DNA from: an uncultured Verrucomicrobiae bacterium | GTDB taxonomy: Bacteria; Verrucomicrobiota; Verrucomicrobiia; Limisphaerales; JAFGQR01 | Direction of reading: 5' to 3' | Assembly (NCBI GenBank): GCA_963788655.1 | Contig: CAWBHS010000049.1 | Coordinates: 96,001-160,000, forward strand | DNA length: 64,000 bases | In this document: one piece after another, positions 100-17,652 of the stretch | Layout: every line of letters begins with the position of its first letter | Position numbering within the stretch: position 1 is the first letter of the stretch | The notes under the pieces: generated by a model | What the model was told of the DNA's origin: nothing | Databases searched by the model: none | What the model saw: only the letters and a program-made list of their open reading frames with translations | Position numbers and translations under genes: made by a program

Positions 100-444
100 A
101 TGAAATTGCCCAATGCGAACCTCGCGCTGGTCGAGCGGGAGAAAATTGTGAATTATTTGCTGAACGCTTCCCATCGGTACGGTTCCAGCAAAGCGCGGTT
201 CTTTGCCGGTTACGGATTCCGGGTAGAGGAGTGGGCGGTGCTGGCCGAGGCACTGCGGCGGCATGGTCAAGACCACGAGGTGAGCAAGGTAACCTGAAAC
301 CGCGTTCGGGCCACGTTATCAAGTGGAAGGCGAAATCAATGCCCCCAATGGCCGCCGTCTTCGCCTTTGCACGGTCTGGCAACTGGACGAAGGGCAGGTT
401 GCGCCGCGACTCATTACCGCCTATCCTGTGGAGGCAAACTATGA
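100..444 (+). CDS. DUF6883-like putative toxin, frameshifted near 295
   Basis: MKLPNANLALVEREKIVNYLLNASH..GSSKARFF continues in another frame as ETAFGPRYQVEGEI..VWQLDEGQVAPRLITAYP. Typical partner of DUF4926. Confidence 0.65.
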
Positions 445-671
445 TTAAAGAACACGATTGCGTCGTCCTGAAAGTGGACCTGGCCGAGGAAGGATTAAAA
501 GCCGGGGACATTGGAGCCGTCGTGCATATCCACGCGGACGGCGCCGGCTACGAAGTCGAGTTCATGACCCTGGCCGGGGAACCCCTGGCCGTCGTTACGC
601 TGTTGCCATCGCAATTACGTTCCATCGCCCGAAGAGACGTAGCCCATGTGCGGGAACGGGCCATCGCCTGA
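441..671 (+). CDS. DUF4926 family protein (putative antitoxin/immunity)
   Basis: MIKEHDCVVLKVDL..GLKAGDIGAVVHIH..GYEVEF motif; overlaps the stop of the upstream gene. Confidence 0.8.
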   Translation: MIKEHDCVVLKVDLAEEGLKAGDIGAVVHIHADGAGYEVEFMTLAGEPLAVVTLLPSQLRSIARRDVAHVRERAIA

Positions 672-930
672 ATTGCGGGCATACTGGAATATTCTGATAA
701 TCAAAGCCGCCGGACACACCTCGTCCCCCCTCCCCCTGGCTGCCGACGCAAAGGGGATACGGGAAGAGCGCGCATCGCCCGACGTTTGCGGCCCGAGACC
801 ACGATGAGTTTGGATTGAGTCGCGAACCGTCTGTGGATGGGTCGCATAAGCATGGTGAGGCACCGCCAGCGGTCGCATAAACGAAGAATGCAAAACTGCA
901 AATTGTCCTGACTGACAAATTCTCGTTTTC

Positions 931-1152
931 GCCTCCCCCTTGGCTCGTCGAAATAGTGCCGCATCGCCCCAAGGTCGCCAGGAACTGTCGCCGATCCTAG
1001 TCCTCGCGCAAGATTGGTTCCCGTCGATCGCCCCGACCTGATCGGGACTTCAGTCCAGGCTCAGGAAATGATACATCGCTCACCGATACTCCACTCTGAG
1101 CCTGCGCGTCATGCCGGCCAACCTGCCTATCATTATCAAGAATACCGTTTAC
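931..1152 (-). repeat. RAYT leader + 5' fragment, copy 1
   Basis: The reverse strand from ATG 1112 reads MTRRLRVEYR*AMYHF..RGDRREPILRED*DRRQFLATLG. Upstream motif tcaagaataccgtttac. Confidence 0.85.
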
Positions 1153-1175
1153 GGGCGACGCTGAAGAAAAGAAGT

Positions 1176-1555
1176 TCAGGAAAGCACGGCCACGCCATAT
1201 TTCTCGAACTGTTCGTCGGTCGTCACGACCGTCAAGTCCTGCAGCGTGGCCGCAGCGACAATGAAACGGTCGCAAGGGTCGTCGTGAATGGGCGAAAGTC
1301 CGGCCGCCGCAATGCACACATCCAATTCAAGCGGCAGAACGGTCAGCCCATGATGCTCGACCGCTTTCTTCAAACCACTCCTGCGGCGGGCTGCGGCAGC
1401 TTCAATTTTCCTCTGGTGGCCTTGATAGCGATTTCAAAACCGCTGATGGCGGAAACATAAACCGCCGGAGCGGCGTTGATTTCTTTCAACGCGGAGCGGC
1501 TCAGTTTCTTATTGCCGCTGGCGAGCCAGAGCAGGGCGCAGGTGTCCAGAATCAT
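1176..1555 (-). CDS. VapC/PIN toxin, frameshifted near 1375
   Basis: MILDTCALLW..VSAISGFEIAIK..GKL and then HDDPCDRFIVAAA..LTVVTTD. Confidence 0.85.
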
Positions 1556-1784
1556 CGCGCCGCCTCCGGCCATTCATCCTGGCCAGCGGCTCCACCGGAT
1601 CATACCCGATTTTGATTTGTCCGAGCACGGGATGCGGTTTGATCCGGCTCGCTCGGTGGTGCGGCACAAGATCAGCGACCGGCTCCCCGTTGCGGCAGAT
1701 GACGATGGTTTCGCTGTCCGCTTCCAGTTTGGCCAGCAGGCTGGAAAAATTGGTTTTCGCTTCGTGAACATTTACCGTCTTCAT
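1552..1784 (-). CDS. Phd/YefM family antitoxin (3' frameshift)
   Basis: MKTVNVHEAKTNFSSLL..ETIVICRNGEPVADLVP; directly upstream of the PIN toxin. Confidence 0.85.
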
Positions 1785-1879
1785 GCCGGACCATGTTAGT
1801 CCAGTTAGTCCATCATTACAACAAAGGCTCGGCCTTGATCGGCGCAGTGTCCGTCACGGTCACGGTCGTGGGAATTACC

Positions 1880-2180
1880 GTCATCGCCGTCTCTGACCGC
1901 ATTCGTCCGGCCACCGCCACTTCCATCGCCTCCCCCTTCTTGGCTCGCTGAAATAGTAACACGTCACCCCAGCGTCGCCAGGAACTACCGCCGGTCCTCG
2001 GCATCGCGCAAGATCGGTTCCCATCGAGTGCCCCGACCTGCTCGCGACTTCAGTCGGAGTTCATGAGATGATAAATCGCTCTTGGATACTCCCCTTTGAA
2101 CTTGCGCGCCATGCCGCCCACCCTGCCAAAACCTCACCAAACGATCAATTTCAAGAACGGACGCGTTTAAACCAGTTTAC
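1880..2180 (-). repeat. RAYT leader + 5' fragment, copy 2, possibly fused to a RAYT C-terminal remnant
   Basis: ATG 2112, MARKFKGEY..AIYHLM..EPILRDAEDRR*FLATLG. Followed by VAVAGRMRSETAMTV, which resembles the RAYT C-terminal 'RLRxETTMT' segment. Upstream motif tcaagaacggacgcgttta. Confidence 0.8.
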
Positions 2181-2199
2181 AGTGAAGCAGTGATCGAGG

Positions 2200-2636
2200 T
2201 CACGGAAGATCATCGCCTTCATCGAACGCCACCAGGCCGAGGTGATCCGCCGACGCCAAGGCTACGGCGGGACAGGTTGAGAAGATTTCGCGGCACTACC
2301 GATTGTGGGAGGAAAGCCCGGCCCGCCGTCCGCCAGCGTCTGCTGAACGGTCAAGCCTGAGCGAGCCGGGAAAGGGATTTCCCACGACTCAGAAGGGCGG
2401 CGCCGAAGGATCCGGCGGCACGGCCCACTGCTCGCGGCGCGGTCCATTCCAGCGCCCGTCAACTCGTTCGCTGGGCTGGGAGAGGCGGCGGCGGCCCTGG
2501 GTGCCCAGTGAGCGGGCGCCCAAGGCCCCCGCCTCTTTGGGAAATCTCTGCCCCAATTCCGCCGATTTTTGACTTGCCCAACCCTTCTGGCTGAGGCAGG
2601 GTCCAATCATTCAAAAAAGCAAATTCCTATGAGTTG
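2200..2636 (+). mobile_element. 3' remnant of an IS91-like element (transposase C-terminus plus oriIS-like end)
   Basis: KIIAFIERHQAEVI..EKISRHYRLWEES resembles the 12957-13148 peptide. Ends in aaaaaagcaaattcctatga|GTTG. Confidence 0.7.
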
Positions 2637-2799
2637 CCATCTATCAGTTCGAAGCAGCCCCCGGCAACCTCGACGCGGCTCGCTCCCACCTCGATGTCAG
2701 CTTTGCGATGGACAAAAAAACTCCGCGACTACGCCATGACAAACCCCGACCTCGACGTTATCCGTCCCGGCGACGTGATCTGCTGAATCCGGCACCCAC

Positions 2800-3036
2800 C
2801 TCTTCGCCACCGAACAAAGCCGCCCCATCACTGGCGACACCACCCGTGCTCCGCTCGAATGGCCCGGCTCTGACCTCGCCACCCTCGCCACTTTCGCCGG
2901 ACGCCCCCTCCGCATCCGCTTCCACCTCGAACGCGGCAGCCTCTACGCCTTCTGGGTCTCGCAGAAAAGCGACGGCACCAGCCGCGGCCACACCGCCGCC
3001 GGAGGCCCCGGCCTCCCCGGCCCCCTCGATGAATAA
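2800..3036 (+). pseudogene. Orphan 3' gene fragment (glycoside-hydrolase-like C-terminus)
   Basis: Frame ending GDTTRAPLEWPG..GRPLRIRFHLERGSLYAFWVS..GHTAAGGPGLPGPLDE*; no 5' part present. Confidence 0.5.
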
Positions 3037-3090
3037 GGGAGTTGAGAGAACCACGACCGCCACACGCTCACCATGACCGACATTGAACCG

Positions 3091-3122
3091 CGCAGCGTCC
3101 AGAAAGCAATTTCTATCAGTTC
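3091..3122 (+). mobile_element. Orphan IS91-type oriIS-like end
   Basis: cgcagcgtccagaaagcaatttctatca|GTTC closely matches the reverse complement of 12686-12714. Confidence 0.7.
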
Positions 3123-3153
3123 CTGGCGGGCATCGAAAGCAAAGGAGTAGCCC

Positions 3154-5426
3154 ATGATCGTCTGCAGCTATCACCTTGTCCAGCATTGCTCGTCGCGCAT
3201 TCTTCCCATCCTTGCGTTGGCTTGCCTGGTCGCCATGGCGAGTCAACTTCCGGGCGGCGAAGGAACTGCCGGTGAGTGGCCCGCAAAGGAACAGGCAGAC
3301 CTTCGGTCCCTGCACGGCCATGCGTCCGCGCTCAAGGTCGAAGCCCTGTGTGAACCGGTCAACTCGGTGATGAGCGGTGACCATATCCTGGTTCCCAATC
3401 CGGATGGCAAGACTTACGATCTGCTCAAGTTCTATTGGAAGAGATATGGCGGGCCCAACACCATCGTCAGCATGGATTGGGCACCGGCAAAGTGAAGGCC
3501 GTGGATACGGGAAGAGACTACTGCAACTTCCACCTGGCTCCCCAGGTGCTCGCGCGCAATGGCAAACTGTACCTCTCGATTCTCGGCGACCAAGTGCAGC
3601 AGCGGATCTGCGTGTATGATCCTGCGACCGATGAATTCAAGGTGGACGGGGTCAAGATGCCCGCGGAGATCCTGGGGGAGACGCACCCGATGGTATTGGG
3701 CCCGGATGGCATGATCTACTGCAGCGGCACGCACTGTTCGCGCAGCGTGACCGCCCTTCGCATCGATCCGGCCACGGATACGGTGGCGGAATTCTATGGT
3801 CCCTTGGGGCCCAGCCACGCGCCTTCCCCGTGCTGGGCCTACAGCATGGCCGTGGGCGACACCCACCTATACATCGCGAGTGGCAAGACGCCCTGGTGGC
3901 TGGTGGCATACGACCGCAACGCCAAGCAGGCGAAGGTGCTTCTGCAGAACGAGGATCCTGCGGGATATCTCGGTGTCAATCAGAACACCGGCGGTGGCAG
4001 TTGCTTTGTCAGAACCACCCAGGCGGGGGGCGGATTCACGGATGAGCGTTACTGGTTGTATCACGGCAAGGCGATCTCCATGACTGGCGACAAGCCGGTC
4101 CCGCCATGGCCCAAAGTCTCAGCGCCACCGGAGCAGCCGCCCCTTCCCGAGTTGTACTTTGTGGGCGCGGACCCTGACGTCAACGGTCAAGCAGTGATCT
4201 GGTGCCGCACTCCCGAGGACAAGGCCACGGCGGAAGCGGCCGCAGCAGCCAATCCTGCCTCAACCCCATCCGCTCCGCTTCCGTCTGCCGAAGAGGGGCA
4301 GCCGCCGGCTCTCCCGACCGATGCGGAGATGATGGCCGCTGGCTGGAAGGCCTTCCGCTTCAAGGTCGGGATGTATCCCTTGCGCATTGATCGTCTGGTG
4401 GAGATCCCGGATGGTCGCCTTTTGGGGACGGCTGGGGATTACCAGGGTAATTTCTACTATAATCCCAAGACCGGCAAGGCCGAGCATCCGGGCAAATGCG
4501 GCCTGAGCCATTACGCCACCGCCATTCTCGACGGCATGGTTTACATGAGTGGTTATCCCAGTGGCGTGCTGTATGAGCTGGATCCCGCCCGCCCCTGGAC
4601 CGCCAACAAGCGCCTCGATGCCACCCGGATCATCCGCGAAACCGATTCGGAAAGCAATCCGCGCCGCCTTACCTACCTGAAAAGTTCCGGCGCGAAAAAG
4701 ATGATGGCCGCAGCCGCGATCCCCGGGCGCGTTTACTTCGGCGGCATCTGGATGCGCGAGGGCAATTGGGGAGGACTGGGCTGGTGGGATGTCGCGACCG
4801 GCACCGAGGGCGGACTTTGGGAGCCATTTCGCAACCACCAGATCCGCTATATGGCCGCGGCGGACAAAGGTCGGGTGCTGGTCCTTTCTACCCTCCCGGT
4901 GGACAACGCGAGGACCGGGGAGAAGAAGGCGGAATCGGCCCCATTGTTCTTCTTCGACACCACTACCGATGCCCTGCTCGACGAGACGCTCATCCCGGTC
5001 CCGAAGGCACGCTGTACCGGCCCCGTGCTGGCCGTGGGCGGCAACCGGGTTATGGGCTGGACCGAGAACCCGGACGATCCCAAGGGATCGAGCATCCTTT
5101 ACGGCGTGGACGCGACGGCGCGCAAGCTCCTCTTCGCGAAGAAGCTTCCCTTCGCAATGCCCATGGATGTGGGCGGGTACCAGACAGATCCCTGGGATTT
5201 CCGACTGGGACCTGACGGCAAGGTCTGGACTTTCATCGAATACAGGTTGACGCGGATCGATCCCGCGGACGCCTCGCTCGAATTCCTGGGCTTCATCGAG
5301 CCCGGGGGTAGGATGGCGTTCGCCGGAGAGGACCTTTACCTCGGTGGCAAGGAAACGTTGCGTTACGTCCGGGGTCTGCTCGCTCCCGCCCAGGCTCCGA
5401 GAGCAACTCCGGAGCCTACCTACTGA
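3154..5426 (+). CDS. Secreted beta-propeller-like protein, frameshifted near 3470
   Basis: Signal-like N-terminus in ORF 3154-3495 joins the 663-aa ORF, which has repeated GPDGxxY/W propeller-type motifs. Confidence 0.65.
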
Positions 5427-5544
5427 CCATCAATCGCCAGCTCGCGTACAATGCCGAAGAGTTTCCTGACGGGCAACATTGGCCGCGCCGGCGGCACCGG
5501 AGATTCCGTTCCTGGACCAGAGCGGCGATTATCTCACGGGGTGC

Positions 5545-5688
5545 TCTTTTCGAAACGGCCCGTGGCGACCCTTGGCCCCAGTCCTTGCCATCCGGGCTGA
5601 CGTAAAACTCGTAGTCACCGATGACGCCTTTCTCGTGGCGTCCGTCCTGCCGGGGCAGGTAGGCGAAGCCGGTGATTTCGGCGTCCTC
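5545..5688 (-). pseudogene. Diverged duplicate of the F5/8 (discoidin) domain segment at 14638-14784
   Basis: EITGFAYLPRQDGRHEKGVIGDYEFYVSPDGKDWGQ versus EITGFAYLPRQDGRHVKGVIGDYEFYVSQDGQDWGQ. Confidence 0.9.
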
Positions 5689-5694
5689 CCCCAT

Positions 5695-5826
5695 AATGGG
5701 GTCAAACAGGTGACAGTTTTCCCTTGAGTGAGTCGGCTGCGTGGCAGGGCCAGAAAACCTCGGAGCGAATACGCCGGAGCGATTTATCATTTCATGAATC
5801 AGGGTGATCTGCAGGAGCCGATCTAC
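5695..5826 (+). repeat. RAYT leader + 5' fragment, copy 3 (opposite orientation, more divergent)
   Basis: ARKPRSEYAGAIYHFMNQGDLQEPIY, preceded by tggggtca. Confidence 0.8.
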
Positions 5827-5843
5827 GTAACTTGCGAAATGGC

Positions 5844-6248
5844 TCACGCACGAGCCGTTCGCCACAGCAGCGGCACCCCGCCCCACTGACGGATTCGCGT
5901 GTCATCGGAGATCAGCCGCAAGCCATGCACCAATGCGGTGGCGACAATCAACTGATCGGCCGGGTCCTTGTGAAAGCCTGAACTCTCCAAGGCCGTCACC
6001 CGCTCGGCAATGGCAGGCGTCACCGGCAGCACGGTCAGTTCTTGCGTGATGGCCAGCCGGAAAAACTCGGCCAGCGGGACGGATAATTGAAGTCGCCCCA
6101 GTTCCACCAACTTGGCGGCTTCCCAAAGCGAGATGTCGGCCAGAGCGAGCGTCGCCGCGTGGCGCGTCAGCGTTTGCTTCACCAGCGGCGGCAATGGCTC
6201 GTCCAGCGCCCGCTGAATCCAAACGTGCGTGTCCAGCAGATGGGTCAT
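5844..6248 (-). CDS. VapC/PIN toxin
   Basis: MTHLLDTHVWI..ISLWEAAKLVELGRL..FHKDPADQLIVATA..LISDD. Confidence 0.9.
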   Translation of the reverse strand: MTHLLDTHVWIQRALDEPLPPLVKQTLTRHAATLALADISLWEAAKLVELGRLQLSVPLAEFFRLAITQELTVLPVTPAIAERVTALESSGFHKDPADQLIVATALVHGLRLISDDTRIRQWGGVPLLWRTARA

Positions 6249-6454
6249 CGCGTCGTCTCCCAGTCCAGCCCGGTGCAAAAAAGATCGCCCGTAATCTTCG
6301 CCTTGCCTTTCAGGGCGCCCTGCCAGGTTTTGGGTTTGATGGCTTGGAAGGTGAAGTGTTGGCCCTCGGAGACGATATGCACCGTTTCCCCCGCGGCGGC
6401 CTTGGCTTTCATGCGGGCAAAGTCGCGTTGAAAATCGCGTGAAGTCACTTTCAT
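6245..6454 (-). CDS. Phd/YefM-like antitoxin
   Basis: MKVTSRDFQRDFARMKAKAAAGETVHI; ATGA overlap with the toxin. Confidence 0.75.
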   Translation of the reverse strand: MKVTSRDFQRDFARMKAKAAAGETVHIVSEGQHFTFQAIKPKTWQGALKGKAKITGDLFCTGLDWETTR

Positions 6455-6497
6455 GTCCGTCACTATGTCAGACAAGATCTCGATCGTCAACAATTTC

Positions 6498-6655
6498 AGG
6501 ATTGGTTCCCGTCGATCGCCCCGACCTGCTCGCGACTTCAGTCGGAGTTCATGAATAAAGAAATCGCTGCCAGATACTCCCCTCTGAGCTTGGGCACCAT
6601 GCCGCCACCCCCTGCCAAAACCTCCCCAACCTATCATTATCAAGACCCGTTTACG
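6498..6655 (-). repeat. RAYT leader + 5' fragment, copy 4
   Basis: ATG 6600, MVPKLRGEYLAAI..RGDRREPIL. Upstream tcaagacccgtttac. Shares the gacctgctcgcgacttcagtcggag insert with copy 2. Confidence 0.85.
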
Positions 6656-7113
6656 TTATCCCTTCCCGTCAAATGCTGCACATCGTCGAGGTCTTTTAGC
6701 CGGCCGCTTTTGATTTTGTTCCGAATGAGGTCGGACCGGCTGATGAGGTTTACTGGAATATCGTCAATGGTGGCCTGCGTCCGGCGGGCATAACACTCGG
6801 CGAATTCGCAAGCGGAGATCTCGGTCAGAATTTCGATCCGCGTAGGTTCCAAGCCCATGCGAATGATTTGTCCCTTCTGCAAAAAGAGATCCTCGGATAA
6901 TTCGGGCACGTTAAAACCGAATTCCTTGATCAAAGTGGCCATCTTTCTCGCATTCTCTGAATGAACGGCGATCCAGATGTCGAGGTCATTGGTGTTCCGG
7001 TAATACCCGTGGTAACAGACCGCGTAACCGCCGATCAACAGGTAATCAACGCGGTGTGAATTCAACAACTTCAAAAAATCTTGAAAGTCGGCGGGCAGTC
7101 GGGTCGTAGCCAT
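6640..7113 (-). CDS. Nucleotidyltransferase-fold protein (DUF6036-like, putative TA component)
   Basis: DFLKLLNSHRVDYLLIGGYAV..YRNTNDLDIW..DLIRNKIKSGRLKDLDD. Confidence 0.8.
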   Translation of the reverse strand: MATTRLPADFQDFLKLLNSHRVDYLLIGGYAVCYHGYYRNTNDLDIWIAVHSENARKMATLIKEFGFNVPELSEDLFLQKGQIIRMGLEPTRIEILTEISACEFAECYARRTQATIDDIPVNLISRSDLIRNKIKSGRLKDLDDVQHLTGRDNVNGS

Positions 7114-7267
7114 AAGCAATTTGTCGGCTCAATTCCAAAGCAGCCAAACGTTCGTCGGGCGTGCGAGAACGCCGATATTCCCGGTCCGCCTGCTCCGCCT
7201 CCGCCAGCGTGGTCACGGAGAACGCGGTCCGATCCACCCGAGCTTGATCCAGCAACGTATCTGCCAT
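7046..7267 (-). CDS. Small partner protein of the nucleotidyltransferase
   Basis: DRTAFSV..ADREY..RTPDERLAALELSRQIAYGYDP; overlaps the NTase start. Confidence 0.65.
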   Translation of the reverse strand: MADTLLDQARVDRTAFSVTTLAEAEQADREYRRSRTPDERLAALELSRQIAYGYDPTARRLSRFFEVVEFTPR

Positions 7268-7394
7268 GAAGGCAGCTTAACCAAAAGGGGGAGAGCAAAG
7301 CAAGGATCACATGACGGTTCGCAAACACACCGCCCGATGGTCAGCTTGCCATTGCCCGCTTGCCAGCGTGGGCCGGACGCGTCATCTTATGTCC

Positions 7395-7637
7395 ATGAAA
7401 ACAGCCAGTGTGCAGCAGGTGCCGCAGCGATGGACGGAAATCCTGGAATGGGTGGCCGCCGGTGAAGAAGTCGCCGTCACGCAGCAGGACCAGGTGGTGG
7501 CGAGGCTCGTGCCCGCTTCGTCCACACCCGCCACTCAACCGGATTTTCTGGCTCGCGCCAAGGCCATCTGGGGTGAGGAACCGTCGGGCAAACCGTTAAG
7601 CGAGTTGGTGACGGAAGCGCGCGGAGGCGAAGCGTGA
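7395..7637 (+). CDS. Phd/YefM family antitoxin
   Basis: MKTASVQQVPQRWTEILEWVAAGEEVAVTQQDQVVARLVP. Confidence 0.8.
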   Translation: MKTASVQQVPQRWTEILEWVAAGEEVAVTQQDQVVARLVPASSTPATQPDFLARAKAIWGEEPSGKPLSELVTEARGGEA

Positions 7638-8062
7638 CCTATCTCGACACCGGTTGTTTTGTCAAACTCTACTACCCCGAACCGGACAGTGCTCAGGTGA
7701 TTGCTGCCATCCAGGGAAAGCCGGTCTGCTTCACGCCACTCCATTAACTGGAATTTGTGAACGGGTTGCAACTGAAACGGTTCTTCCAGGGAGCAACGGC
7801 GACCCAAGTAGCGGCGGCCCGGGCGCTGGTGGAAGGTGACTTGAAGGCTGGCGTGCTCGTGCCGGTTGGCGGAAATTGGAATGGCATCTTCCAAGAGGCC
7901 GTGACATTGGCGGAACAGCACACTGACATGCTGGGTTGCCGGTCGCTCGACATCCTGCATTGCGCCGCGGCGAAAATGCTGGCGGTGAGTGAGTTCATCA
8001 GCACGGACATCCGGCAAAAGAAACTGGCCGTGGCCATGGGGTTGAACCTGGTGACGATTTGA
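7634..8062 (+). pseudogene. VapC/PIN toxin with in-frame TAA at 7745-7747
   Basis: GTG start, (M)TYLDTGCFVKLYYPE..TPLH*LEFVN..CRSLDILHCAAA..STDIRQ. Confidence 0.8.
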
Positions 8063-8067
8063 GAACG

Positions 8068-8263
8068 GCTCACCGAAATGTTCCGCTTCCCCCCAACGTC
8101 GCAATAAACCGCTGCCGATCCTCGTCATCGCGAAAGATCGGCTCCCGCCGGTCCCCTCGATTCATGAAATGATACATCGCTCCGAGATACTCCACTCTGA
8201 GCTTGCGCGCCATACCGCCTACCCTGCCAAAACCTTCCGCAACCTGTCAATATCAAGAACTGA
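8068..8263 (-). repeat. RAYT leader + 5' fragment, copy 5 (best preserved; leader interrupted by IS110)
   Basis: ATG 8213, MARKLRVEYLGAMYHFMNRGDRREPIFRDDEDRQRFIATLGEA. The leader resumes at 10147 (cccgttta). Confidence 0.9.
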
Positions 8264-8585
8264 TAAGCATCTAAAGATGATTGGAAAACGACTTATGATC
8301 GAGAGCGACTTGAGAGGGCGAACGGGGCTTGGTGATGGCGCTGTTCGGGCGGGCCTTGACGCGCCGATTCGCCGAGGCGGGGCGAGTCCGTTACGCGTGG
8401 CGACCGACGGCGACGCGAGCGGGAGGCTCGAACGCTCGTCGCCGTCGCTCGCCCGCCCCGGCGAATCTTCCGGCGCGAGCACGACGGGAATGCACGTGGA
8501 GCCGAGCGGGCCAGGTTTGTTAAGCTCGCGGCGAGCTGAGTGGTTCGCCCCTCAGAAAACAACGCAATGAAACGAATAACGAACC

Positions 8586-9654
8586 ATGAAAGAACCAAAT
8601 AAGACGCGCCGCAAAGCGCGACCGAAACCCGACCTCTATGGCGCCGTGGATCTGCACGGGAACAACGGCCTGTATTGCCTCATCAACCAACACGACGAAC
8701 GGGTGTTTCAACAACGTCTGCCCAACGATTTGCCGACGGTGCTCCAAGCCCTCAAACCGTTCCGCGACCGTTTAGTTCACGGCCTGGCCGTCGAGTCCAC
8801 CTTCAACTGGTATTGGCTGGTGGACGGGCTGGAGGCCCACGGCTACACCCTGCAACTGGTGAACCCCACCAAAGTGCAAACCTACAGTGGCCTCAAGCAG
8901 ACCAACGACAAAACCGACGCCTTCTGGTTGGCGCACCTGCAGCGCTTAGGCGTGCTGCCCACGGGCTACATTTACCCGAAAGCCCAGCGCGGCGCCCGCG
9001 ATCTGTTACGCCGGCGGATGTTCCTGGTGCAACAGCGCACGGCCCACGTGCTGAGTTTTAAGTCGCTGGTCGAACGCGAAACCGGTAATCACATCCCGGC
9101 CAACACCGTCAAGGCGCTGGCGACCGAGGAAGTGAGCCAGTGGGTGAATGGCAACGAAGCGGTGCTAATGGGGCAAACCAACGTGCGCGTCGATCGACTG
9201 TCTGGACGAACAAATTAAGCGCCTGGAACAAGCGGCCCAAGCCCAGCTCAAGCTGCTGCCCGACTACGAACGCCTCCAGCAGATTCCCGGCCTGGGCCCG
9301 ATCCTCAACCGGGTGATCATGCTGGAGACCGGACCGATCACGCGGTTTGCCGGGGCGGGCAATTACGTTTCCTACTGTCGGGGAGTGCGCGCGGAGAAAC
9401 TCTCCAACGACCGTAAGAAAGGCGAGAACAACCGCAAGTGCGGGAACAAGTATCTGGCCTGGGCCTGGATGGAAGCAGCGCATTTTGCGATCCGCTACAG
9501 CCCGGAAATCAAAGCGTGGTATCAACGCAAACTCAAACGCTGCGGCGGCCAGACGGCGATCGCCCTCAAAGCGGTCGCGGCCAAACTGGCCAAAGCGGCT
9601 TATTACCTCCTCAAGAATCAGGAAGATTTCAAGATGCAACAAGTCTTTGGCTAA
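8586..9654 (+). CDS. IS110 DEDD recombinase/transposase, frameshift near 9190
   Basis: AVDLH..AVESTFNWYW..KQTNDKTDAFWLA; C-terminal IPGLGPI..YVSYC..LSNDRKKG..GNKYLAWAWMEAA..KAVAAKLA. Confidence 0.95.
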
Positions 9655-9659
9655 GCTTT

Positions 9660-9998
9660 CGGTGGGGGCGGCAAATCCGATAAACGGGTTGGTGCGAAAC
9701 CACCAGAACTGATTGGAGCGCCGCCGCCACCGGATCCATTTAACAGCTCGGGCGAGCTGGCAGTAAACGCTGTTTTGCCCGGCCCAGGAGTCAGCATGGG
9801 TTGAACGCGGGCGGACGGGAAACCGCCCTGGCCGCGAGTCATGGGACTGTGCGCATGAAATGAACCTGGGTTGGTACGAATGATTTTCTGGCTCGGCGCG
9901 AGCGGAGTGGGGCCGGTTCGAGACGCAGGCCGCCAGGCCTGCCGGACCGGACTAGAACCAGATGGATGACTGGACAAAACGGACGGCGACCCGCAGGC
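9660..9998 (+). ncRNA. Putative bridge/seek RNA of the IS110 element
   Basis: A stem at 9661-9672/9720-9731 encloses taaacgggt (9681-9689) and agaactga (9705-9712), which match the two halves of the target. atggatga (9962-9969) matches the element's right end (10139-10146). Confidence 0.8.
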
Positions 9999-10271
9999 GG
10001 GGCGTCAAAAGTTGGAACCTGGCGATGGAAGTTGTCGGTGCAACGGCGGACCTGGCGGCACGGACGAGCATCGGTACGTCGTGTCAAAAAACAGTTTTTT
10101 GGCGATAGAATAATTTTGTCTCTTGACTCGAACCTTTAATGGATGACCCGTTTAGACCCGTTTACGTTACGTTTATGGTCGGCTCGCTCATGGAATATTC
10201 AATTGTCTATCAGATAATGCGCAATAGAGAAGCCTAAAGGGCAAAGGAAATTTGGCAGATTTGCTCGACCC

Positions 10272-10301
10272 CAATTGATAGGAATTTGCTTTTTTGACGC
10301 T
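10272..10301 (-). mobile_element. Orphan IS91-type oriIS-like end
   Basis: aattgataggaatttgcttttttgacgct is identical to 12683-12711. Confidence 0.8.
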
Positions 10302-10317
10302 CCGCGCTTCAGCCCCT

Positions 10318-10369
10318 CCGCTTTGCGGCGAGGCGCCGCAAACAGCACGCGAGGCGCGTGCGCTCCCCA
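10318..10369. repeat. REP-like palindromes
   Basis: tttgcggcgaggcgccgcaaa followed by gcacgcgaggcgcgtgcgctcccc. Confidence 0.55.
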
Positions 10370-10410
10370 AAAACCATCTTCACCCCGGCTACGCCTTTTC
10401 TTAATCCGCT

Positions 10411-12676
10411 CTATGATTTCACGATGAGCACGGGGCAGGGCGCGCTTTCGACGATGGCCTCGGCGCTTTGGCCGAAGTGAAGCTGGCCGTCGGACGTGGC
10501 CGTGATTCCGAGCACGATGAGCTGGTGCCCGCCCAGCCGCGCCTGGCGCAAAATCGCGCTCTCCTTGGCGGGCCCCACCAGGGCCTTCGTGACGACATGC
10601 ACCTCCTCGCGTTTGCCGAGCGCGACGATATCCGCCAGCAGCGCGCGCCCCGTCCGGAGGAGTTTTTCGGGGCGCCGCAGCAGCTCGCTATCCGCGGGCG
10701 GGATTGAGACGTGCAGGGCCGTGATCGCGCCGCCGCAGCCCCTGGCGATCGCGACGGCCACTTCGGCGCCGAACCGCGAATAATCCGCGCCCGTCGCCGG
10801 GACTAGAATCCTTTCCAGGGAAGCATCCGAGGGCGCCTGCGCGCTTCCGGCGTTGAGCAGAATGGCGATCGGCCCCGCAAATTCACGGAAGATATTCTCG
10901 ACGGCCGCCTGAAGATCATTCGCTCCACCGAGTCCGAGAATGAGCAGCCCGTAACCGTGCTCCGCTTCCGTCAGGATGGCCGTCTCCGGGTCGTGGTTTT
11001 CCACGGGATGGATCGAGATCAAATCCCGGACTGGCGCGGGCTTCGCGGCCTTTTCGGCGGGGGCGTCCCGCGCCGCGTTTTTCCGGGCGCGTTTCCCAGC
11101 CTCGCTCGCCGCAAGAGCCTTTCCGGCATTCGCGGCTTCCGTGGCGACGTCGTGAGCCGGGCCGGTGTCCTTTGTCGCTCCGCTCGCGTCGATCACCGTC
11201 GCCGTGAGGCGCCGGGCGCCGACCAGCCAGCCAGCGAGCCGCGCAGCCAGTCGGGCCTCTTCGCTGCCATCGAGCCCGACGAGCACGCGCTCGACCTTCG
11301 GCATCAGATCATGTTCCTCCGCCTGCTCCGCCTCGATCCGCTTCTGTTCATCGGGCCGCGTCGGAACGCGGGCGAGCGCCCATCGCAGCAGCGGCGGCAT
11401 GCAGAGCGTCGTGACCACGGCCATGAGGACGATGATCGTGAAAAGGCGCGGATTCAAAACGCCCATCGACAGGCCGATCGTGGCGAGGATGACCTCGGTC
11501 GAGCCGCGCGCATTCATCCCGAGCCCGACTGCCAGCGACTCCGGGTGATTCAATCGCGCAAGCCGGCTGCCGATGTAACAGCCGCCGAGTTTCCCGATGC
11601 TCGCGATGCCGATCAGCAGCGCGGCGAGCCACAGGAGATCGGGATTGCCGAGCACCTTCAGATCGATGGAAAGACCGGCCACGCCGAAGAAAACCGGCAT
11701 GAAGAGCGCGACGATCAGCCCGCGCAGTTGCTCTTCGATGTGCTTCGTCAGGATCGGCGACTGGCCGATCTATGATTCCCGCCACGAATGCGCCGAGCAC
11801 CGTATGCACGCCGATGAAATCGGTGAGCAGCGCCAGCGCGATCATCAGCACGAGGATGACGCTGATGACCGGCATCTCGATGATGAAGCGGTCATTCACC
11901 CAGCGGATGATGCGCGCGACCCAGCGGTGCCCGAGCGTGAAACAAACAACGAGGAAAACGACCGTCCCGCAGACGCTGATGAGCACCGGCCCGAGGACGA
12001 CCTTTCCGTGCGCGGCGAGCCCGCCGATGAACGCGAGAATCGTCCAGCCGATGGTGTCGTCCAGGATCGCTGCGGCGAGGATGATCTGGCCGAGATCGCG
12101 CCGGAGGAAATCCACCTCGCGCAGCACGGCGGCGACGATCTTCACCGAGGAAATCGAGAGCGCCGTCGCGAGGAAAAGCGATGTGATCACCCGACGACCG
12201 GGATCGGGAAGGATGCTCTCGGGCAGCATCTCGCCGAGCGCGTAGCCGCACGAAAACGGGATGAGAATTCCGGCGGCGGAGACGACGGCAGCCATGCGGC
12301 GCACGCGTTTCACGAGCGCGAGATCCGTCTCCATGCCGGTGAGCAGCAGCAGCATGAGCACGCCCAACTCGGACACCGCGCTCAGCATCGGCCGATCGGC
12401 GGATTCCGCCGGAAATATCGTCTGCTGAGCCACCGGCCAGATTGCCCCGAAAACGCTCGGACCCAGCGCGATTCCCGCGAGCAACTGACCGATCACGGCG
12501 GGCTGCCCGATCCGTTGCATGGCTTCACCCAAAAGCCTGCCGGTGAGAACCAGCAGCGCGATCTGCGCGAAGAAAACCACGAGCTTGTGGTCGCCCTGCC
12601 CGACAGCCGCCGCGAGCAAAGGGATGCCGCCATTGAACAGCGAAGAGTGAAGATCGGGCATCGGTCGCAGAGTCAC
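10411..12676 (-). CDS. Cation:proton antiporter (CPA2/KefB-like) with C-terminal universal stress domains, frameshift near 11770
   Basis: IGQPAVIGQLLAGIALGPS, SISSVKIVA..ILAAAILDD, GMNARGSTEVI; USP-like ILVPATG..HFGQSAEAIV..PCPVLIV. Confidence 0.9.
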
Positions 12677-12956
12677 GTATTGAATTGATAGGAATTTGCT
12701 TTTTTGACGCTGCGTGGTTCAGGGAGAATTGCTTTTGCGTCATGTTCATTTCGGGCGATTTTCTGCCTGCGGGAGCAGGTGTCAACCGCGGTTTCCGTGT
12801 TTTTTTGCTGCTTCGGCAATGGTGCGCCCGTGGCCGCGGCCGGCGGACGCCCGCCGGAGGGATTCGAGGGCAAAACGGGCCGTTGGTGGGCCGCAGCGAG
12901 GCACACCCCACCGGTGGGCGCAGGCGGCGTCTTTGCCTTCGGCGGCCTGGGCTGGA

Positions 12957-14362
12957 TCAGTCGGTCAGGACGTTTTCGTAGTCGGGCATGGGGTCCACGT
13001 CGTCGCACGGTTCGCGGGTCCACGGCCCGGCGTCGGCGTCCGGCGGGGCGCGGGCCGGGGCCAGCAGCGGCGTGCCGCTCCAGAGGCCGAGGTGCCGGAG
13101 GATTTTTTCCACTACTTCACGCTGGTCAATCACGGCAATCACCCGCATCGGGTGCTGGCAGCGGGGGCAGAGCAGCGGGTCGGTGTGCCAGACCTTGCAG
13201 GATCAGGTCGCGCCATTTCTTGGACGGCAGTTTCGCGGGCGGAGGCGGAGTGCTGGGCGGGCGCAGGGGCGCGGACGCCGCGCCCGCCGTTCTGGGCGCG
13301 GTGGCGCTGGCCGCGCATCTTGTTGGAATACCAGCCGTAGTAGCGGACCATTTGCGCGCCTTTGTCGGGGATGTGCTGGGTGATGGCGGCCAGGAAATCG
13401 GTGGGGGTGAAGACTTCGAAGTTGCGGTTGATTTTGGGATTGAGCTTGGAGCGGTAGATGACGGTGTCGGTGGGGGATTCCATCGTCATTTTTTCCACGG
13501 AGAAGGGATTGCGGAGGATGTATTGGGCGAGTTGTTCGAGTTCGGCCTTGTTTTCGGGCGGGACGGGTTCGCCGGCGTGGACGTTGAAGCCGGAGTGTTT
13601 CCAGGAGTGGAGAACCTGGACGCGTTCGGGCGGGAGGAGTTTCAGGGTGACGAGGAATTTGAGGACATGGGCGCGGAAGAGTTCTTCGAGGGGTTTGAGG
13701 GGGAGTTCGGGCAGCGGGTGGAAGATACCGCCTGCCTGTGCCTGGCCGCATGCAGACAGGTCGCGGGTGAAGAGGCCGTCGGCGACAAGGGCGTGAACAT
13801 GGGGATGGAAGTCCAGGTATTCGCCGAAGGTGTGGAGGGTGAGGATAATGGCGGGATGGAAGGAGTTCCGCCGCCCCCGCACCCCGGTCCCTGATGGGGG
13901 CGCGGGAGAAACGGCGGCGCGAAGGTATTCGGTGAGGCTCTGATGGGCCAGGGCGCAGAGGCATTTGAGGAGGCGGCGGTGGCGCTGGAAATAGGGGCGG
14001 AGCATCTTGGGCAGAGCGAGGACATAGTGGCGGTGGGGCACGGGTGCCAGGACGCGGGCGGTGAGGAAGGCGGCGGTGGTCTGGACGTTCTTTTGGTGGC
14101 AGGAGGGGCAGAACCAGCGGGATTTGCAGGAGAAGGCCAGGAGGTGTTCGAGGCGGCAGTGGTCGCAGCGGACGCGGGCGAAGCCGCGCTCGAGGTTGCC
14201 GCAGCCCAGGAATTTGTGGACGACTTGCGGGATGACCGGGCGCAGGGGGCCCAGACGGGGTTGGTAGTCGTGCGGGTAGTTGGCAACGAAGGTGGCGAAG
14301 TGGCGGTGAGCGCAGCGCCAGAGGGGCGACTTTTTCGGGTTGCGGGCATGATAGAGGCGCAT
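12957..14362 (-). CDS. IS91-family (Y2/HUH) transposase, 3' frameshifts
   Basis: Zn-binding GFARVRCDHC..FSCKSRWFCPSC; HTFG..FHPHVHALVADG (HUH); HSGFNVH; YILR; VRYYGWYSN; C-terminal DPLLCPRC..EKILRHLGLW. Confidence 0.92.
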
Positions 14363-14419
14363 CGTGCATAGCAACGTCCGTAATGGACACGCGCGCAATA
14401 GGGGCCATGACAATCCTTT

Positions 14420-14489
14420 CCGCCTGGGCTTCCTCGGTTTCCTGACGTTCCTCCCAGAGCCCGTAGTACCGCAAAATCTTCTCGATCAT
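14420..14489 (-). pseudogene. Second IS91-like transposase C-terminal scrap
   Basis: MIEKILRYYGLWEE, similar to 2279-2315 and to the end of the full transposase. Confidence 0.55.
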
Positions 14490-17400: not shown

Positions 17401-17496
17401 AGACTTTTCAACGTTGCTTTCGGCCGCGATCGCTGTCGCGTGGGTCAGCAGCAGGCCAGTGATCGTCACCGCCAGGAGAACAAATCGGGTAAGCAT
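14490..17496 (-). CDS. HEAT-repeat + DUF1080 (3-keto-disaccharide hydrolase-like) + F5/8 domain protein, frameshift near 15215
   Basis: HEAT repeats; SLFDGRSLAGWEG..NSGVQFRS..FQADIG..YDESRR; WNRYEVRC..LIALQIH..ISFRN; AIDGKPETFWHT..GFAYLPRQD. Confidence 0.85.
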
Positions 17497-17499
17497 AGA

Positions 17500-17652
17500 A
17501 GCCTTCTTCAAAACCTTGCGGCCGTAGCGGCGTCTCGGCAGAGCGCCGCACTCGTTGCGCTCGAAATGAAATATGGCGGCGCTCTGCCGAGACGCCGCTA
17601 CGAGATTCTGAAATTGCCTCATAGTTTTGGGGATTCGGTTTTGAGGATGCTC
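17500..17652. repeat. MITE-like unit enclosing a GTAG REP doublet
   Basis: Perfect IR gtagcggcgtctcggcagagcgccgc (17524) / gcggcgctctgccgagacgccgctac (to 17601). Outer imperfect IR agccttcttcaaaacc / ggttttgaggatgct. Confidence 0.75.

What the first reader, a model, noticed from the sequence alone, without database searches (positions are those of the whole stretch)
100..8263. Cassette-like toxin-antitoxin array punctuated by RAYT leader/5'-end repeats
Seen: five TA-like pairs lie in 8 kb (DUF6883/DUF4926, three Phd-like/VapC, NTase/small partner). Each has a neighbouring 130-300 bp copy of the same kind of unit (931-1152, 1880-2180, 5695-5826, 6498-6655, 8068-8263). The unit is the motif tcaagaactgacccgtttac (variable between copies), a leader, and only the first 25-45 codons of a RAYT (MARKLRVEY..YHxMNRGDRREPIF). 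All copies stop before the HUH motif. No intact RAYT or integron integrase is in the window. Inference: the leader acts as a reusable nick/recombination site or homology anchor for serial acquisition of cassettes. That would be an integron-like accretion platform run by an HUH enzyme in trans.
Basis: partly seen in the sequence, partly recalled or inferred. Interest (0 to 1): 0.82.

Follow-up and report, generated by a model that had tools for sequence, protein, structure and literature searches.

The report
Transposon-end relics among toxin-antitoxin genes
The first 15 kb of this window mix small toxin-antitoxin gene pairs with broken left ends of a known but little-studied jumping gene (a TIRYT/TIRtron element), and this looks like mobile-DNA debris, not an integron-like gene-capture machine, although one broken end sits exactly at the edge of a 9-kb block that a close relative lacks.

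Summary
Five TA-like pairs and five copies of one unit lie at the stated coordinates. The unit is a known thing: the left terminal inverted repeat, leader and first 27-45 codons of a TIRYT/TIRtron element, a Y1 HUH family. Intact 307-aa copies with inverted repeats at both ends lie on contig C22.

- a sixth TIRYT piece, a 3' end;
- an IS91-family (Y2 HUH) element with three remnants;
- a broken IS110;
- that three of the five toxin genes are broken.

One metagenome contig of a 95-99% relative joins 5694 directly to 14790. So 9.1 kb with three TA pairs and three units is gained or lost as one block, with its edge exactly at the repeat of u3.

Against a general cassette platform:
- TIRYT pieces in 5 other genomes are not enriched near PIN genes (4 of 143 within 2.5 kb, about 3.5 expected).
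- The TA-B module has 70-83% DNA relatives in 12 other genomes with unrelated flanks.
- There is no room for attC sites.

Verdict: a decaying mobile-DNA patchwork. HUH-end-driven block movement is a live minority reading. Interest is moderate.

The parts
100..448 (+). DUF6883 gene in two pieces (100-297, 323-448), frameshifted
   Evidence: Pfam PF21814, profile 1-62 and 75-109
441..671 (+). DUF4926 gene, partner of DUF6883
   Evidence: Pfam PF16277, 71.8 bits
738..875 (+).
   Evidence: tblastn with the intact C22 protein, 59% identity, E 6e-6
931..1152 (-). Unit u1: left inverted repeat, leader and about 41 TIRYT codons plus about 35 nt shared only with u2; carries the 23-nt insertion and a stop at codon 11
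1176..1573 (-). PIN toxin A, split into two ORFs (1370-1573, 1176-1373)
   Evidence: Pfam PIN, profile 1-52 and 66-118
1509..1784 (-). Phd-type antitoxin A
   Evidence: Pfam PhdYeFM 40.9 bits; NCBIfam phd_fam weak
1880..2180 (-). Unit u2: as u1, with the 23-nt insertion; points into TA pair A
2194..2640 (+). 3' remnant of an IS91-family element, ending in the family's terminal about 30 nt (2611-2640)
   Evidence: tblastn and sequence comparison; inverted match 2611-2636 with 10272-10297
3435..5426 (+). Kelch-like 663-aa gene: conserved core also held by relatives in runs X1 and X3
   Evidence: read laying contigs at 95-99% over 2563-5694; weak Kelch_6 match
5545..5689 (.). Repeat A: host-type piece of the discoidin-domain gene, displaced by the island
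   Evidence: 88% over 146 nt to 14639-14784; contiguous with 14790 onward in X1
5695..5826 (+). Unit u3: separate TIRYT subfamily, cut at codon 27; its repeat edge is the left end of the 9.1-kb island
5844..6248 (-). PIN toxin B, intact
   Evidence: Pfam PIN 50.6 bits; 77-92% protein relatives in 10 other genomes
6245..6454 (-). Antitoxin-sized ORF B (no Pfam hit); with PIN B it forms the about 650-bp module 5843-6490
   Evidence: module borders from DNA matches in 12 genomes
6497..6655 (-). Unit u4: cut at codon 27, carries the 23-nt insertion; faces u3 across TA pair B
6640..7119 (-). DUF6036 nucleotidyltransferase; its stop codon lies inside the u4 repeat
   Evidence: Pfam PF19502 28.2 bits; sequence
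7046..7267 (-). Small partner ORF of the nucleotidyltransferase (no family hit)
7389..7637 (+). Phd-like antitoxin C (below the Pfam cut-off)
   Evidence: Pfam PhdYeFM 22.7 bits, cut-off 29.8
7634..8062 (+). PIN toxin C with an in-frame TAA at 7745-7747
   Evidence: Pfam PIN 29 bits when read through with X; own-genome search lists 1 TAA
8068..8263 (-). Unit u5: same subfamily as u1, u2 and u4 but without the 23-nt insertion; 47-codon open frame
8586..9654 (+). IS110-family transposase gene in two ORFs
   Evidence: Pfam DEDD_Tnp_IS110 and Transposase_20; NCBIfam transpos_IS110, both pieces below the cut-off
10273..10312 (-). Solo copy of the IS91-family 3' terminal sequence
   Evidence: 92.5% over 40 nt to 12683-12722
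10411..12676 (-). Na/H exchanger with Usp domains, in two overlapping ORFs (cargo of the island)
   Evidence: Pfam
12679..14347 (-). IS91-family element (Y2 HUH rolling-circle transposase), frameshift near the C-terminus
   Evidence: Pfam Y2_Tnp and Zn_Tnp_IS91; NCBIfam transpos_IS91 158 bits, cut-off 125; 82% copy at C2:4757-6444
14403..14522 (-). C-terminal remnant of a second IS91 subfamily; overlaps the stop of the discoidin-domain gene
   Evidence: 83% to C49:95580-95699; peptide match
14639..14784 (.). Repeat B: diverged copy of repeat A at the right end of the island, completing the F5/8 type C domain of gene 14493-15290(-)

Best explanation
WHAT THE UNITS ARE. They are solo left ends of TIRtron elements. 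Each holds the left terminal inverted repeat, a leader that contains a -35-like hexamer, and the first 27-45 codons of the TIRYT gene. TIRYT is a Y1 HUH protein of TnpA-Y1 subclass 2.1. The element is, or recently was, an insertion sequence in this order of bacteria.

WHERE THEY LIE. They sit in a strain-variable patch of about 15 kb. Debris of at least three mobile-element families has piled up there (TIRYT, IS91 family, IS110), together with independently mobile toxin-antitoxin modules.

HOW THE ARRAY AROSE, AS I INFER IT.
1. TIRYT copies of one subfamily inserted into this patch.
2. One copy acquired a 23-nt insertion.
3. A truncated left end of that copy was then duplicated locally, giving u1, u2 and u4.
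4. Deletions removed most of each element.
5. The TA modules survive, packed 7-23 nt from the stumps, because loss of a working addiction module is selected against.

WHAT MOVES. The patch is gained or lost in blocks, not cassette by cassette. One 9.1-kb block begins exactly at a TIRYT repeat and ends with a diverged copy of the target segment.

SHOWN: identity of the unit, its copies and their relationships, the block polymorphism, and the independence of the TA-B module.
INFERRED: the order of events, the deletion-barrier role of the TA modules, and the enzyme that moved the block.
For: IDENTITY OF THE UNIT.
- Intact 307-aa genes at C22:13393 and C22:202406 carry Y1_Tnp.
- The motif fits the eight-base G-rich consensus that Di Nocera et al. 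give for TIRYT repeats (passages, section 20 of Quentin et al.).

THE ELEMENT IS OR WAS MOBILE.
- Its N-terminal peptide matches 120 of 201 genomes of the order, up to 35 or more times per genome.
- Several copies are internal-deletion derivatives that keep both gene ends.
- Run X1 shows a TIRYT repeat abutting window 2563 that this genome lacks.

DECAY.
- About 25 TIRYT pieces lie in this genome. Only the two C22 copies read as uninterrupted 307-aa frames.
- DUF6883, PIN A, PIN C, IS110, the IS91 gene and the exchanger gene are all broken.

LOCAL COPYING.
- u1, u2, u4 and u5 are 68-78% alike and at most 66% like any other copy.
- u1, u2 and u4 share the 23-nt insertion, which occurs nowhere else in the genome and had 0 hits in genome contigs.

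BLOCK POLYMORPHISM. One X1 contig joins 5694 to 14790, with 28 of 28 bases matching.

NO GENERAL LINK TO TA.
- 4 of 143 TIRYT matches lie within 2.5 kb of one of 134 PIN matches in 5 genomes. My arithmetic gives about 3.5 by chance.
- The TA-B module (5843-6490) is 70-83% alike at DNA level in 12 of the 13 other-genome loci fetched.
- Flanks were compared for 10 of those loci and are all unrelated. A TIRYT piece lies within 1.5 kb in 1 of 13, and a repeat hit in 0 of 13.

NOT AN INTEGRON ARRAY. The gaps between TA gene ends and units are 7-23 nt, which leaves no room for attC sites.
Against: - 5' pieces also outnumber 3' pieces genome-wide. The N-terminus is the better-conserved part, so detection is biased. 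Even so, random deletion alone does not predict the excess.
- u3 and u4 are cut at the same codon and face each other across TA-B. Genome G074 shows the same picture around a DUF433/DUF5615 pair.
- Of 15 clusters of two or more TIRYT pieces in 5 other genomes, 8 hold TA, defence or RHS genes.
- At 3 of 20 left-repeat sites in this genome, the DNA just outside the repeat recurs 2-9 kb inside. The recurrence ends exactly at the repeat edge, and all three segments carry TA-like genes.
- u1 and u2 differ at 21% of 196 positions without a single indel.

These points fit an active role of the ends better than passive debris.
Confidence: 0.58

Rival explanations
1. TIRYT-end-driven accretion. The left repeats are working ends. 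An intact TIRYT, acting in trans, nicks at the flank/repeat boundary and moves the DNA that follows the end. This could happen as a circle or by one-ended copying. The result is segments that start at a left repeat, carry TA cargo, and end with a copy of the sequence that preceded the repeat. Serial events at such sites built the array.
For: - The exact coincidence of the 9.1-kb indel with the edge of the u3 repeat.
- Three flank-copy segments in this genome end 0 nt from the repeat edge. They are 146 nt at 88%, 712 nt at 90.7% and 524 nt at 99.6%, and each carries TA-like cargo.
- For the u3 island, the left copy reads like X1 up to its last bases, where it differs from copy B. That argues against a homologous crossover inside the repeat.
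- A dead left end was copied three times.
- TA pairs lie between inward-facing left ends in two genomes.
- 5' pieces are in excess.
Against: - 0 of 19 TIRYT copies in G041, G136 and G005 show the flank-copy geometry.
- u1, u2, u4 and u5 show none.
- No intact enzyme of their subfamily is in the assembly.
- No conserved hairpin was found in the left end: 0 predicted pairs in 16 copies.
- There is no enrichment near PIN genes elsewhere.
- The TA-B module travels without TIRYT ends.
- The empty-site evidence is one short contig, of which 30 loose bases were seen.
- No activity of any TIRYT has been reported in the passages I read.
Confidence: 0.22
2. The IS91-family elements built the patch. One-ended rolling-circle transposition from their origin-type ends dragged neighbouring DNA along, as described for ISCR elements. 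The captured DNA included TA modules and TIRYT stumps. The TIRYT pieces are passengers.
For: - A nearly intact IS91-family element lies at 12679-14347.
- Its terminal sequence recurs solo at 10273-10312 and at the end of the remnant 2194-2640.
- Remnants of a second subfamily sit at 14403-14522 and just left of the window at C49:95580-95699.
- These pieces lie at or near the outer limits of both TA-rich stretches.
- That the family performs one-ended capture is recalled knowledge, not tested here.
Against: - The left edge of the 9.1-kb block is a TIRYT repeat, not an IS91 end.
- The two other flank-copy segments (C49:85133 and C25:24870) showed no IS91 gene among the ORFs scanned.
- The transposase gene is frameshifted here and carries a stop in the C2 copy.
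Confidence: 0.1
3. The units are kept because they serve the TA genes. Their repeat carries a promoter-like hexamer, so u2 and u4 would drive TA pairs A and B. u1, u3 and u5 would make antisense transcripts across the convergent toxin genes.
For: - A conserved -35-like hexamer lies about 30-35 nt upstream of the start codon in all copies aligned.
- u2 and u4 point into TA-A and TA-B, while u1, u3 and u5 converge on TA gene ends.
- There are no indels between u1 and u2.
Against: - The TA-B module keeps its own upstream region in 12 genomes without any unit.
- The repeats of the units are degenerate: repeat model E 0.57 for u5 and 38 for u2.
- Two of the three toxins that would be regulated this way are broken.
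- No expression data were available.
Confidence: 0.05
4. A classical integron cassette array without its integrase (CALIN).
For: - TA-rich, tightly packed small cassettes.
- The genome does encode integron integrases elsewhere: 3 matches over the TIGR02249 cut-off, at C59:66134, C49:288364 and C69:40024, two of them with an internal stop.
Against: - No integrase in the window.
- Only 7-23 nt lie between TA gene ends and the units, so attC sites of 60 nt or more cannot fit.
- A crude attC pattern scan found nothing. It also found nothing beside the integrase genes, so it is a weak test.
- The repeats are coding-derived, not palindromes.
Confidence: 0.02

Closest known systems
TIRtrons / TIRYT genes (Di Nocera, De Gregorio & Rocco 2013, PMC3733652); TnpA-Y1 subclass 2.1 of Quentin et al. 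2018 (PMC6006769)
   Same: - A Y1 HUH protein of about 300 aa.
- It is flanked by terminal inverted repeats, not REP hairpins.
- The repeats fit the published G-rich eight-base consensus.
- No large dispersed repeat family accompanies it.
   Different: - Here the element is multi-copy, with internal-deletion derivatives and a population-level insertion difference.
- The finding itself concerns solo left ends clustered with TA genes.
- Three segments end in a copy of their left flank.
- None of this is in the passages I read.
IS200/IS605-family insertion sequences and their non-autonomous derivatives
   Same: The same catalytic superfamily. Truncated and internally deleted copies occur. Ends are needed in cis.
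   Different: - No subterminal hairpins were detected.
- The ends are inverted repeats.
- NCBIfam transpos_IS200 scores 20.4 bits against a cut-off of 55.
IS91 / ISCR rolling-circle elements and ISCR-linked gene arrays
   Same: An HUH enzyme, one-ended mobilisation of neighbouring genes, and truncated duplicated ends inside arrays. A true IS91-family element lies in the block.
   Different: The block edge seen in the relative is a TIRYT repeat.
Chromosomal integron cassette arrays rich in TA cassettes (for example Vibrio superintegrons; recalled)
   Same: Tightly packed small TA cassettes separated by a recurring sequence.
   Different: No attC sites, and no IntI nearby. The separators are gene-derived stumps in mixed orientation with variable inner ends.
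Integrative islands that insert inside a gene and bring a replacement gene end (tyrosine-integrase islands at tRNA or protein genes; recalled)
   Same: The 9.1-kb block and two other segments are flanked by a direct repeat of the target. The island-borne copy keeps the target gene whole.
   Different: No integrase gene was found in the block among the ORFs scanned. The other island edge is always the outer end of a TIRYT repeat.

Membership tests
TIRtron / TIRYT (TnpA-Y1 subclass 2.1) | Y1 HUH transposase domain with HUH and Tyr motifs | tested here: met
   Met for the intact genomic copies: Pfam Y1_Tnp 51 bits for the C22 copies. The five units hold only codons 1 to 27-45 and lack the HUH motif.
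TIRtron / TIRYT (TnpA-Y1 subclass 2.1) | Gene flanked by terminal inverted repeats that fit the published G-rich consensus | tested here: met
   Inverted copies lie at both ends of C22:13393, C22:202406 and C2. The repeat model finds 17 significant copies, nearly all at gene ends. The motif is conserved in 16 copies from 4 genomes. The consensus was read.
TIRtron / TIRYT (TnpA-Y1 subclass 2.1) | C-terminal helix-turn-helix extension (Bac_DnaA_C, HTH_23 or HTH_28 type) | tested here: inconclusive
   The protein is 307 aa, so it has a long C-terminal extension. Pfam reports no HTH family at E up to 0.05.
REPtron (REP-associated RAYT) | Match to the REP-associated tyrosine transposase model, and flanking REP hairpins present as a large dispersed family | tested here: not met
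   NCBIfam REP_Tyr_transpos scores 48.9 bits against a cut-off of 80. Only 17 repeat copies lie in 8.96 Mb. No conserved hairpin was found.
IS200/IS605 family | IS200-type TnpA and subterminal hairpins at both ends | tested here: not met
   transpos_IS200 scores 20.4 bits against a cut-off of 55. RNAalifold predicts 0 pairs over the left end. The right end was not folded.
Integron / CALIN | attC sites at cassette 3' ends | tested here: not met
   The gaps are 7-23 nt. The crude pattern scan was negative, but it is a weak test. No attC covariance model was available.
Integron / CALIN | IntI integrase next to the array | tested here: not met
   TIGR02249 matches over the cut-off lie only at C59, C49:288364 and C69, none in the window.
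IS91 family (element at 12679-14347) | Y2 HUH transposase with an N-terminal zinc-binding domain | tested here: met
   Pfam Y2_Tnp 91 bits and Zn_Tnp_IS91 66.7 bits. NCBIfam transpos_IS91 158 bits, cut-off 125. The gene is frameshifted near its end.
Type II toxin-antitoxin (VapBC / Phd-PIN type) | Adjacent small antitoxin and PIN toxin genes | tested here: met
   Domains and overlapping gene pairs are seen for A, B and C. PIN A is split, PIN C has a stop, and antitoxin B has no family hit. Toxicity and neutralisation are not testable with these tools.

The most novel reading that the evidence does not exclude
TIRYT left ends are working integration sites of a Y1 HUH system that moves multi-kilobase cargo. 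A segment starts exactly at the left repeat, carries addiction modules, and ends with a copy of the DNA that preceded the repeat. It goes in or out precisely at that boundary without breaking the target gene. Repeated events, plus copying of enzyme-less left ends in trans, stack TA cassettes into arrays. This would be a hitherto undescribed, integrase-free way of building defence/TA islets.
Probability: 0.2. Interest if true: 0.8.

Novelty: new variant of a known kind. Interest (0 to 1): 0.45.

Why it matters
In the passages I read, TIRYT/TIRtron elements are catalogued but not shown to move. This locus adds circumstantial signs that they do:
- multi-copy spread across the order;
- derivatives that keep both gene ends;
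- an insertion difference between close relatives;
- a 9-kb block whose edge is exactly a TIRYT repeat.

If the ends are active, they would offer a new route by which toxin-antitoxin and defence genes are gathered and exchanged in large soil-type genomes. If they are not, the locus is still a clear example of addiction modules surviving as tightly packed residues while the elements that brought them erode. The 650-bp TA-B module is up to 92% identical at protein level across families, with no shared flanks. That is itself a neat case of a "naked" mobile TA pair.

Tried and rejected
1. CONSERVED HAIRPIN IN THE LEFT END. 16 copies, from 70 nt upstream to codon 33, gave 0 predicted pairs. The idea of a hairpin-type left end was dropped.

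2. THE 23-NT INSERTION AS A WIDESPREAD ELEMENT. 0 hits in genome contigs. In this genome it occurs only in u1, u2 and u4.

3. SYNTENY IN RELATED GENOMES.
- The only same-genus genome has no match to u2 or to the Kelch-like protein, and the best match elsewhere is 40%.
- Metagenome contigs held no relative of the Kelch-like protein.

4. ENRICHMENT NEAR PIN GENES IN 5 OTHER GENOMES. 4 of 143 against about 3.5 expected. I compared the lists by hand. Only PF01850 was used, and the assemblies are fragmented.

5. FLANK-COPY GEOMETRY ELSEWHERE. 0 of 19 copies, out of 20 regions fetched; L052 was too short to test.

6. CRUDE attC REGULAR EXPRESSION. No hits anywhere, including beside the integrase genes, so it is uninformative.

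7. A JOINT 7052 TO 7844 IN RUN X2. Only 27 nt lie on one side, at 88% likeness. I judged it unreliable and did not use it.

8. PARTS OF THE STRETCH WITHOUT COVER IN X1-X3. Not used as evidence.

9. PFAM COVERAGE.
- All 321 ORFs around the other copies in this genome were scanned.
- Of 319 ORFs in the 15 clusters, 296 were scanned and 9 of the 12 L042 ORFs.
- 11 ORFs of L041 and 3 of L042 were never scanned.
- Before scanning, I dropped ORFs nested in an ORF at least 2.2 to 2.5 times longer.

10. THE NUCLEOTIDYLTRANSFERASE-LIKE ORF ON C25. The listed ORF L019:3926-4414 was compared by reference instead.

11. LITERATURE.
- 'TIRYT' is held by 3 papers, 2 listed.
- 'tyrosine transposase' with 'toxin-antitoxin' and 'REP-associated' gave 6 papers.
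- I read passages of PMC5581495 and found no link of RAYT or TIRYT ends to TA arrays.
- The other five were seen only as a search listing.
- Supplements were not opened.

Full report
1. OBSERVATION

The repeat finder reports three matches:
- a 134-nt family at 1009-1142, 2009-2142, 6497-6630 and 8110-8243, at 66-78% to the reference copy;
- a 196-nt pair, 932-1127 and 1932-2127, at 79% and without gaps;
- a 50-nt inverted match between 5775-5824 and 8135-8184, at 86%.

Translation gives the N-terminus of a Y1 transposase in each copy.

Pfam supports the gene content:
- DUF6883 in two pieces, with DUF4926;
- Phd with a PIN split in two;
- an unassigned small ORF with an intact PIN;
- a DUF6036 nucleotidyltransferase with an unassigned small ORF;
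- a weak Phd match with a PIN that carries an in-frame TAA.

So three of the five presumed toxins are broken in this draft assembly (115 contigs, 86% complete).

2. WHAT THE UNIT IS

The laid genome holds about 25 pieces of the same gene family. Two are intact 307-aa genes on contig C22. One copy lies about 45-50 nt upstream of the start codon and one just after the stop, often with short iterated half-motifs outside.

A profile of the repeat finds 17 significant copies in 8.96 Mb, nearly all at gene ends. So there is no REP-like dispersed family.

The family models place it as follows:
- NCBIfam's REP-associated transposase model scores 48.9 bits, cut-off 80.
- The IS200 model scores 20.4 bits, cut-off 55.
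- RNAalifold finds no conserved pairing in 16 left ends from four genomes.

These features match the TIRYT/TIRtron class. Members are long Y1 proteins with terminal inverted repeats in place of hairpins, and the repeats share a G-rich eight-base consensus that ours fits. I read passages of Di Nocera et al. 2013 (PMC3733652). I read section 20 and passages of Quentin et al. 2018 (PMC6006769), where the class is equated with TnpA-Y1 subclass 2.1.

The unit is therefore the left end of a known kind of element: the repeat, a leader with a -35-like hexamer, and codons 1 to 27-45.

3. IS THE ELEMENT MOBILE?

- The N-terminal peptide matches 120 of 201 genomes of the order, up to 35 or more times per genome, and many matches have short open frames.
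- Several copies in other genomes, and two in this one, are internal deletions. They keep 29-74 N-terminal codons joined to the last 35-85 codons. That is the pattern of non-autonomous derivatives.
- In run X1, a TIRYT repeat abuts window position 2563, where this genome has the tail of an IS91 remnant.

4. RELATIONSHIPS OF THE FIVE UNITS

- u1, u2, u4 and u5 form one subfamily. They are 68-78% alike and at most 66% like any other copy in the genome.
- u3 is separate, at 49-57%.
- u1, u2 and u4 share a 23-nt insertion that breaks the frame. It is absent from u5 and from all other copies. It had no hit in genome contigs.
- u1 and u2 also share about 35 nt beyond the point where TIRYT homology ends.

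So a dead, truncated left end was copied at least twice inside this array. The TA pairs between the copies are unrelated to each other. No intact gene of this subfamily is in the assembly.

5. WHAT ELSE IS IN THE PATCH

- A sixth TIRYT piece, the last 46 codons, lies at 738-875(+) and faces u1.
- An IS91-family element (Y2 HUH) lies at 12679-14347, with NCBIfam at 158 bits against a cut-off of 125.
- Its terminal sequence recurs at 10273-10312 and at the end of a 3' remnant at 2194-2640.
- Remnants of a second IS91 subfamily lie at 14403-14522 and just left of the window.
- An IS110 gene in two pieces lies at 8586-9654.

6. STRAIN COMPARISON

No close genome is held, and metagenome contigs gave nothing. 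Runs X1 and X3 hold short contigs at 95-99% identity over 2563-5694 only.

One X1 contig runs up to 5694 and then continues for 178 nt of other sequence. Its first 28 bases equal window 14790-14817. So the relative lacks 5695-14789, which is 9,095 bp. That block holds u3, TA-B, u4, the nucleotidyltransferase pair, TA-C, u5, IS110, an exchanger gene and the IS91 element.

The left edge of the block is the first base of the u3 repeat. The right end of the block (14639-14784) is an 88% copy of the 146 nt that precede u3 (5545-5689). That copy completes the F5/8 type C domain of gene 14493-15290.

This rests on one short contig.

7. THE SAME GEOMETRY ELSEWHERE

For 20 left-repeat sites in this genome I compared 800 nt outside the repeat with 30 kb inside. 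Three sites have a direct copy that ends exactly at the repeat edge:
- u3;
- C49:85133, with 712 nt at 90.7%, 3.6 kb apart. This segment holds a second TIRYT subfamily gene and two Phd/PIN pairs;
- C25:24870, with 524 nt at 99.6%, 2.07 kb apart. This segment holds a TIRYT pseudogene and an ORF that is 39% identical over 57 residues to the window's nucleotidyltransferase.

u1, u2, u4 and u5 show nothing of the kind. Neither do 19 copies in G041, G136 and G005.

Two mechanisms could give this geometry. One is enzyme-mediated integration of a circle opened at the flank/repeat boundary. The other is single-crossover homologous integration of a circle. For the u3 island, the left copy reads like X1 up to its last bases, where it differs from copy B. 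That disfavours the second mechanism, but the data are thin.

8. ASSOCIATION WITH TA GENES

In this genome TA genes lie within about 1 kb of the following, out of roughly 17-20 loci:
- the array;
- a fragment at C22:5213, with a PIN 187 bp away;
- a solo repeat at C75:113739, with an RHH/PIN pair about 600 nt away;
- a deletion derivative at C100:30632, with an AF2212-like ORF followed by a weak PemK-like ORF.

The long or intact copies sit beside ordinary genes.

In five other genomes, 4 of 143 N-terminal matches lie within 2.5 kb of one of 134 PIN matches. About 3.5 are expected by chance.

Among 15 contigs chosen only because two or more TIRYT pieces lie close together, 8 hold TA, defence or RHS genes and 7 do not. 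One of the 8 (G074) has a DUF433/DUF5615 pair between inward-facing left ends, like u3/TA-B/u4.

So clustered stumps tend to lie in conflict-gene islets, but single copies do not track PIN genes.

9. THE TA-B MODULE TRAVELS ALONE

- PIN B has 77-92% protein relatives in 10 other genomes.
- DNA similarity in 12 other genomes (70-83%) starts and stops at window 5843-5862 and 6325-6490. That is the span between the inner ends of u3 and u4.
- I compared 200-nt flanks of 10 of these loci, and none share sequence.
- Of the 13 other-genome loci fetched, 1 holds a TIRYT piece within 1.5 kb and 0 hold a repeat hit.

So the cassette does not need TIRYT ends to spread. In the window, its neighbours are simply eroded up to its borders.

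10. VERDICT

The best-supported reading is a decaying, strain-variable patchwork. TIRYT left ends are relics, some of them copied locally. TA modules persist as deletion-resistant residues. I put this at about 0.58.

A TIRYT repeat edge is a real mobility junction, and dead ends were copied. But the evidence is for block movement, not serial cassette capture, and it does not generalise. I give the revised HUH-end model about 0.22, an IS91-driven origin about 0.10, a regulatory role about 0.05 and a classical integron about 0.02.

The locus is a new variant of known kinds (TIRtron relics plus TA islets). It carries one unexplained and testable feature: segments led by a left end and closed by a copy of their own flank.

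Noticed in passing
window 12679-14347 (also 2194-2640, 10273-10312, 14403-14522; C2:4757-6444): An IS91-family rolling-circle element with a frameshift near its C-terminus, plus solo terminal sequences and remnants of a second subfamily. The C2 copy has an internal stop instead.
   Followed up: partly
G000 C59:66134-67021, C49:288364-289293, C69:40024-40947: Three integron-integrase matches over the TIGR02249 cut-off, two of them with an internal stop. So the organism has or had integrons elsewhere. Their cassette arrays were not examined.
   Followed up: no
G000 C49:84427-89452 (just left of the window): A 3.6-kb segment with a second-subfamily TIRYT gene and two Phd/PIN pairs. It lies between 712-nt direct repeats (90.7%) of the 3' part of a TPR gene.
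   Followed up: partly
G000 C25:22277-25402: A TIRYT pseudogene plus a nucleotidyltransferase-like pair, lying between 524-nt direct repeats (99.6%) of a GxGYxYP-family gene. This looks like a very recent event.
   Followed up: partly
G000 C25:24560-24650 and C22:5290-5340: Two TIRYT pseudogenes share the same replacement: the HUH-coding stretch (about codons 43-69) is replaced by about 50 nt that contain a short tandem motif.
   Followed up: no
G000 C49:276800-276930: A truncated TIRYT fragment runs into low-complexity DNA made of a repeated 10-12-nt motif.
   Followed up: no
window 14493-17901 (-): A large gene with HEAT repeats, a 3-keto-disaccharide hydrolase domain and a discoidin domain reads as two overlapping ORFs (15145-17901 and 14493-15290). 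This is a frameshift or an assembly error.
   Followed up: no
window 5843-6490 and loci L066-L077: The 650-bp antitoxin/PIN module is up to 92% identical in protein (83% in DNA) in genomes of other families of the order, with no shared flanks. It looks like a 'naked' horizontally mobile TA pair.
   Followed up: partly
G000 C75:113713-113800, C2:9674-9818, C97:20695-20736: Short iterated half-copies of the outer part of the TIRYT repeat (2-4 in tandem) precede several left ends.
   Followed up: no
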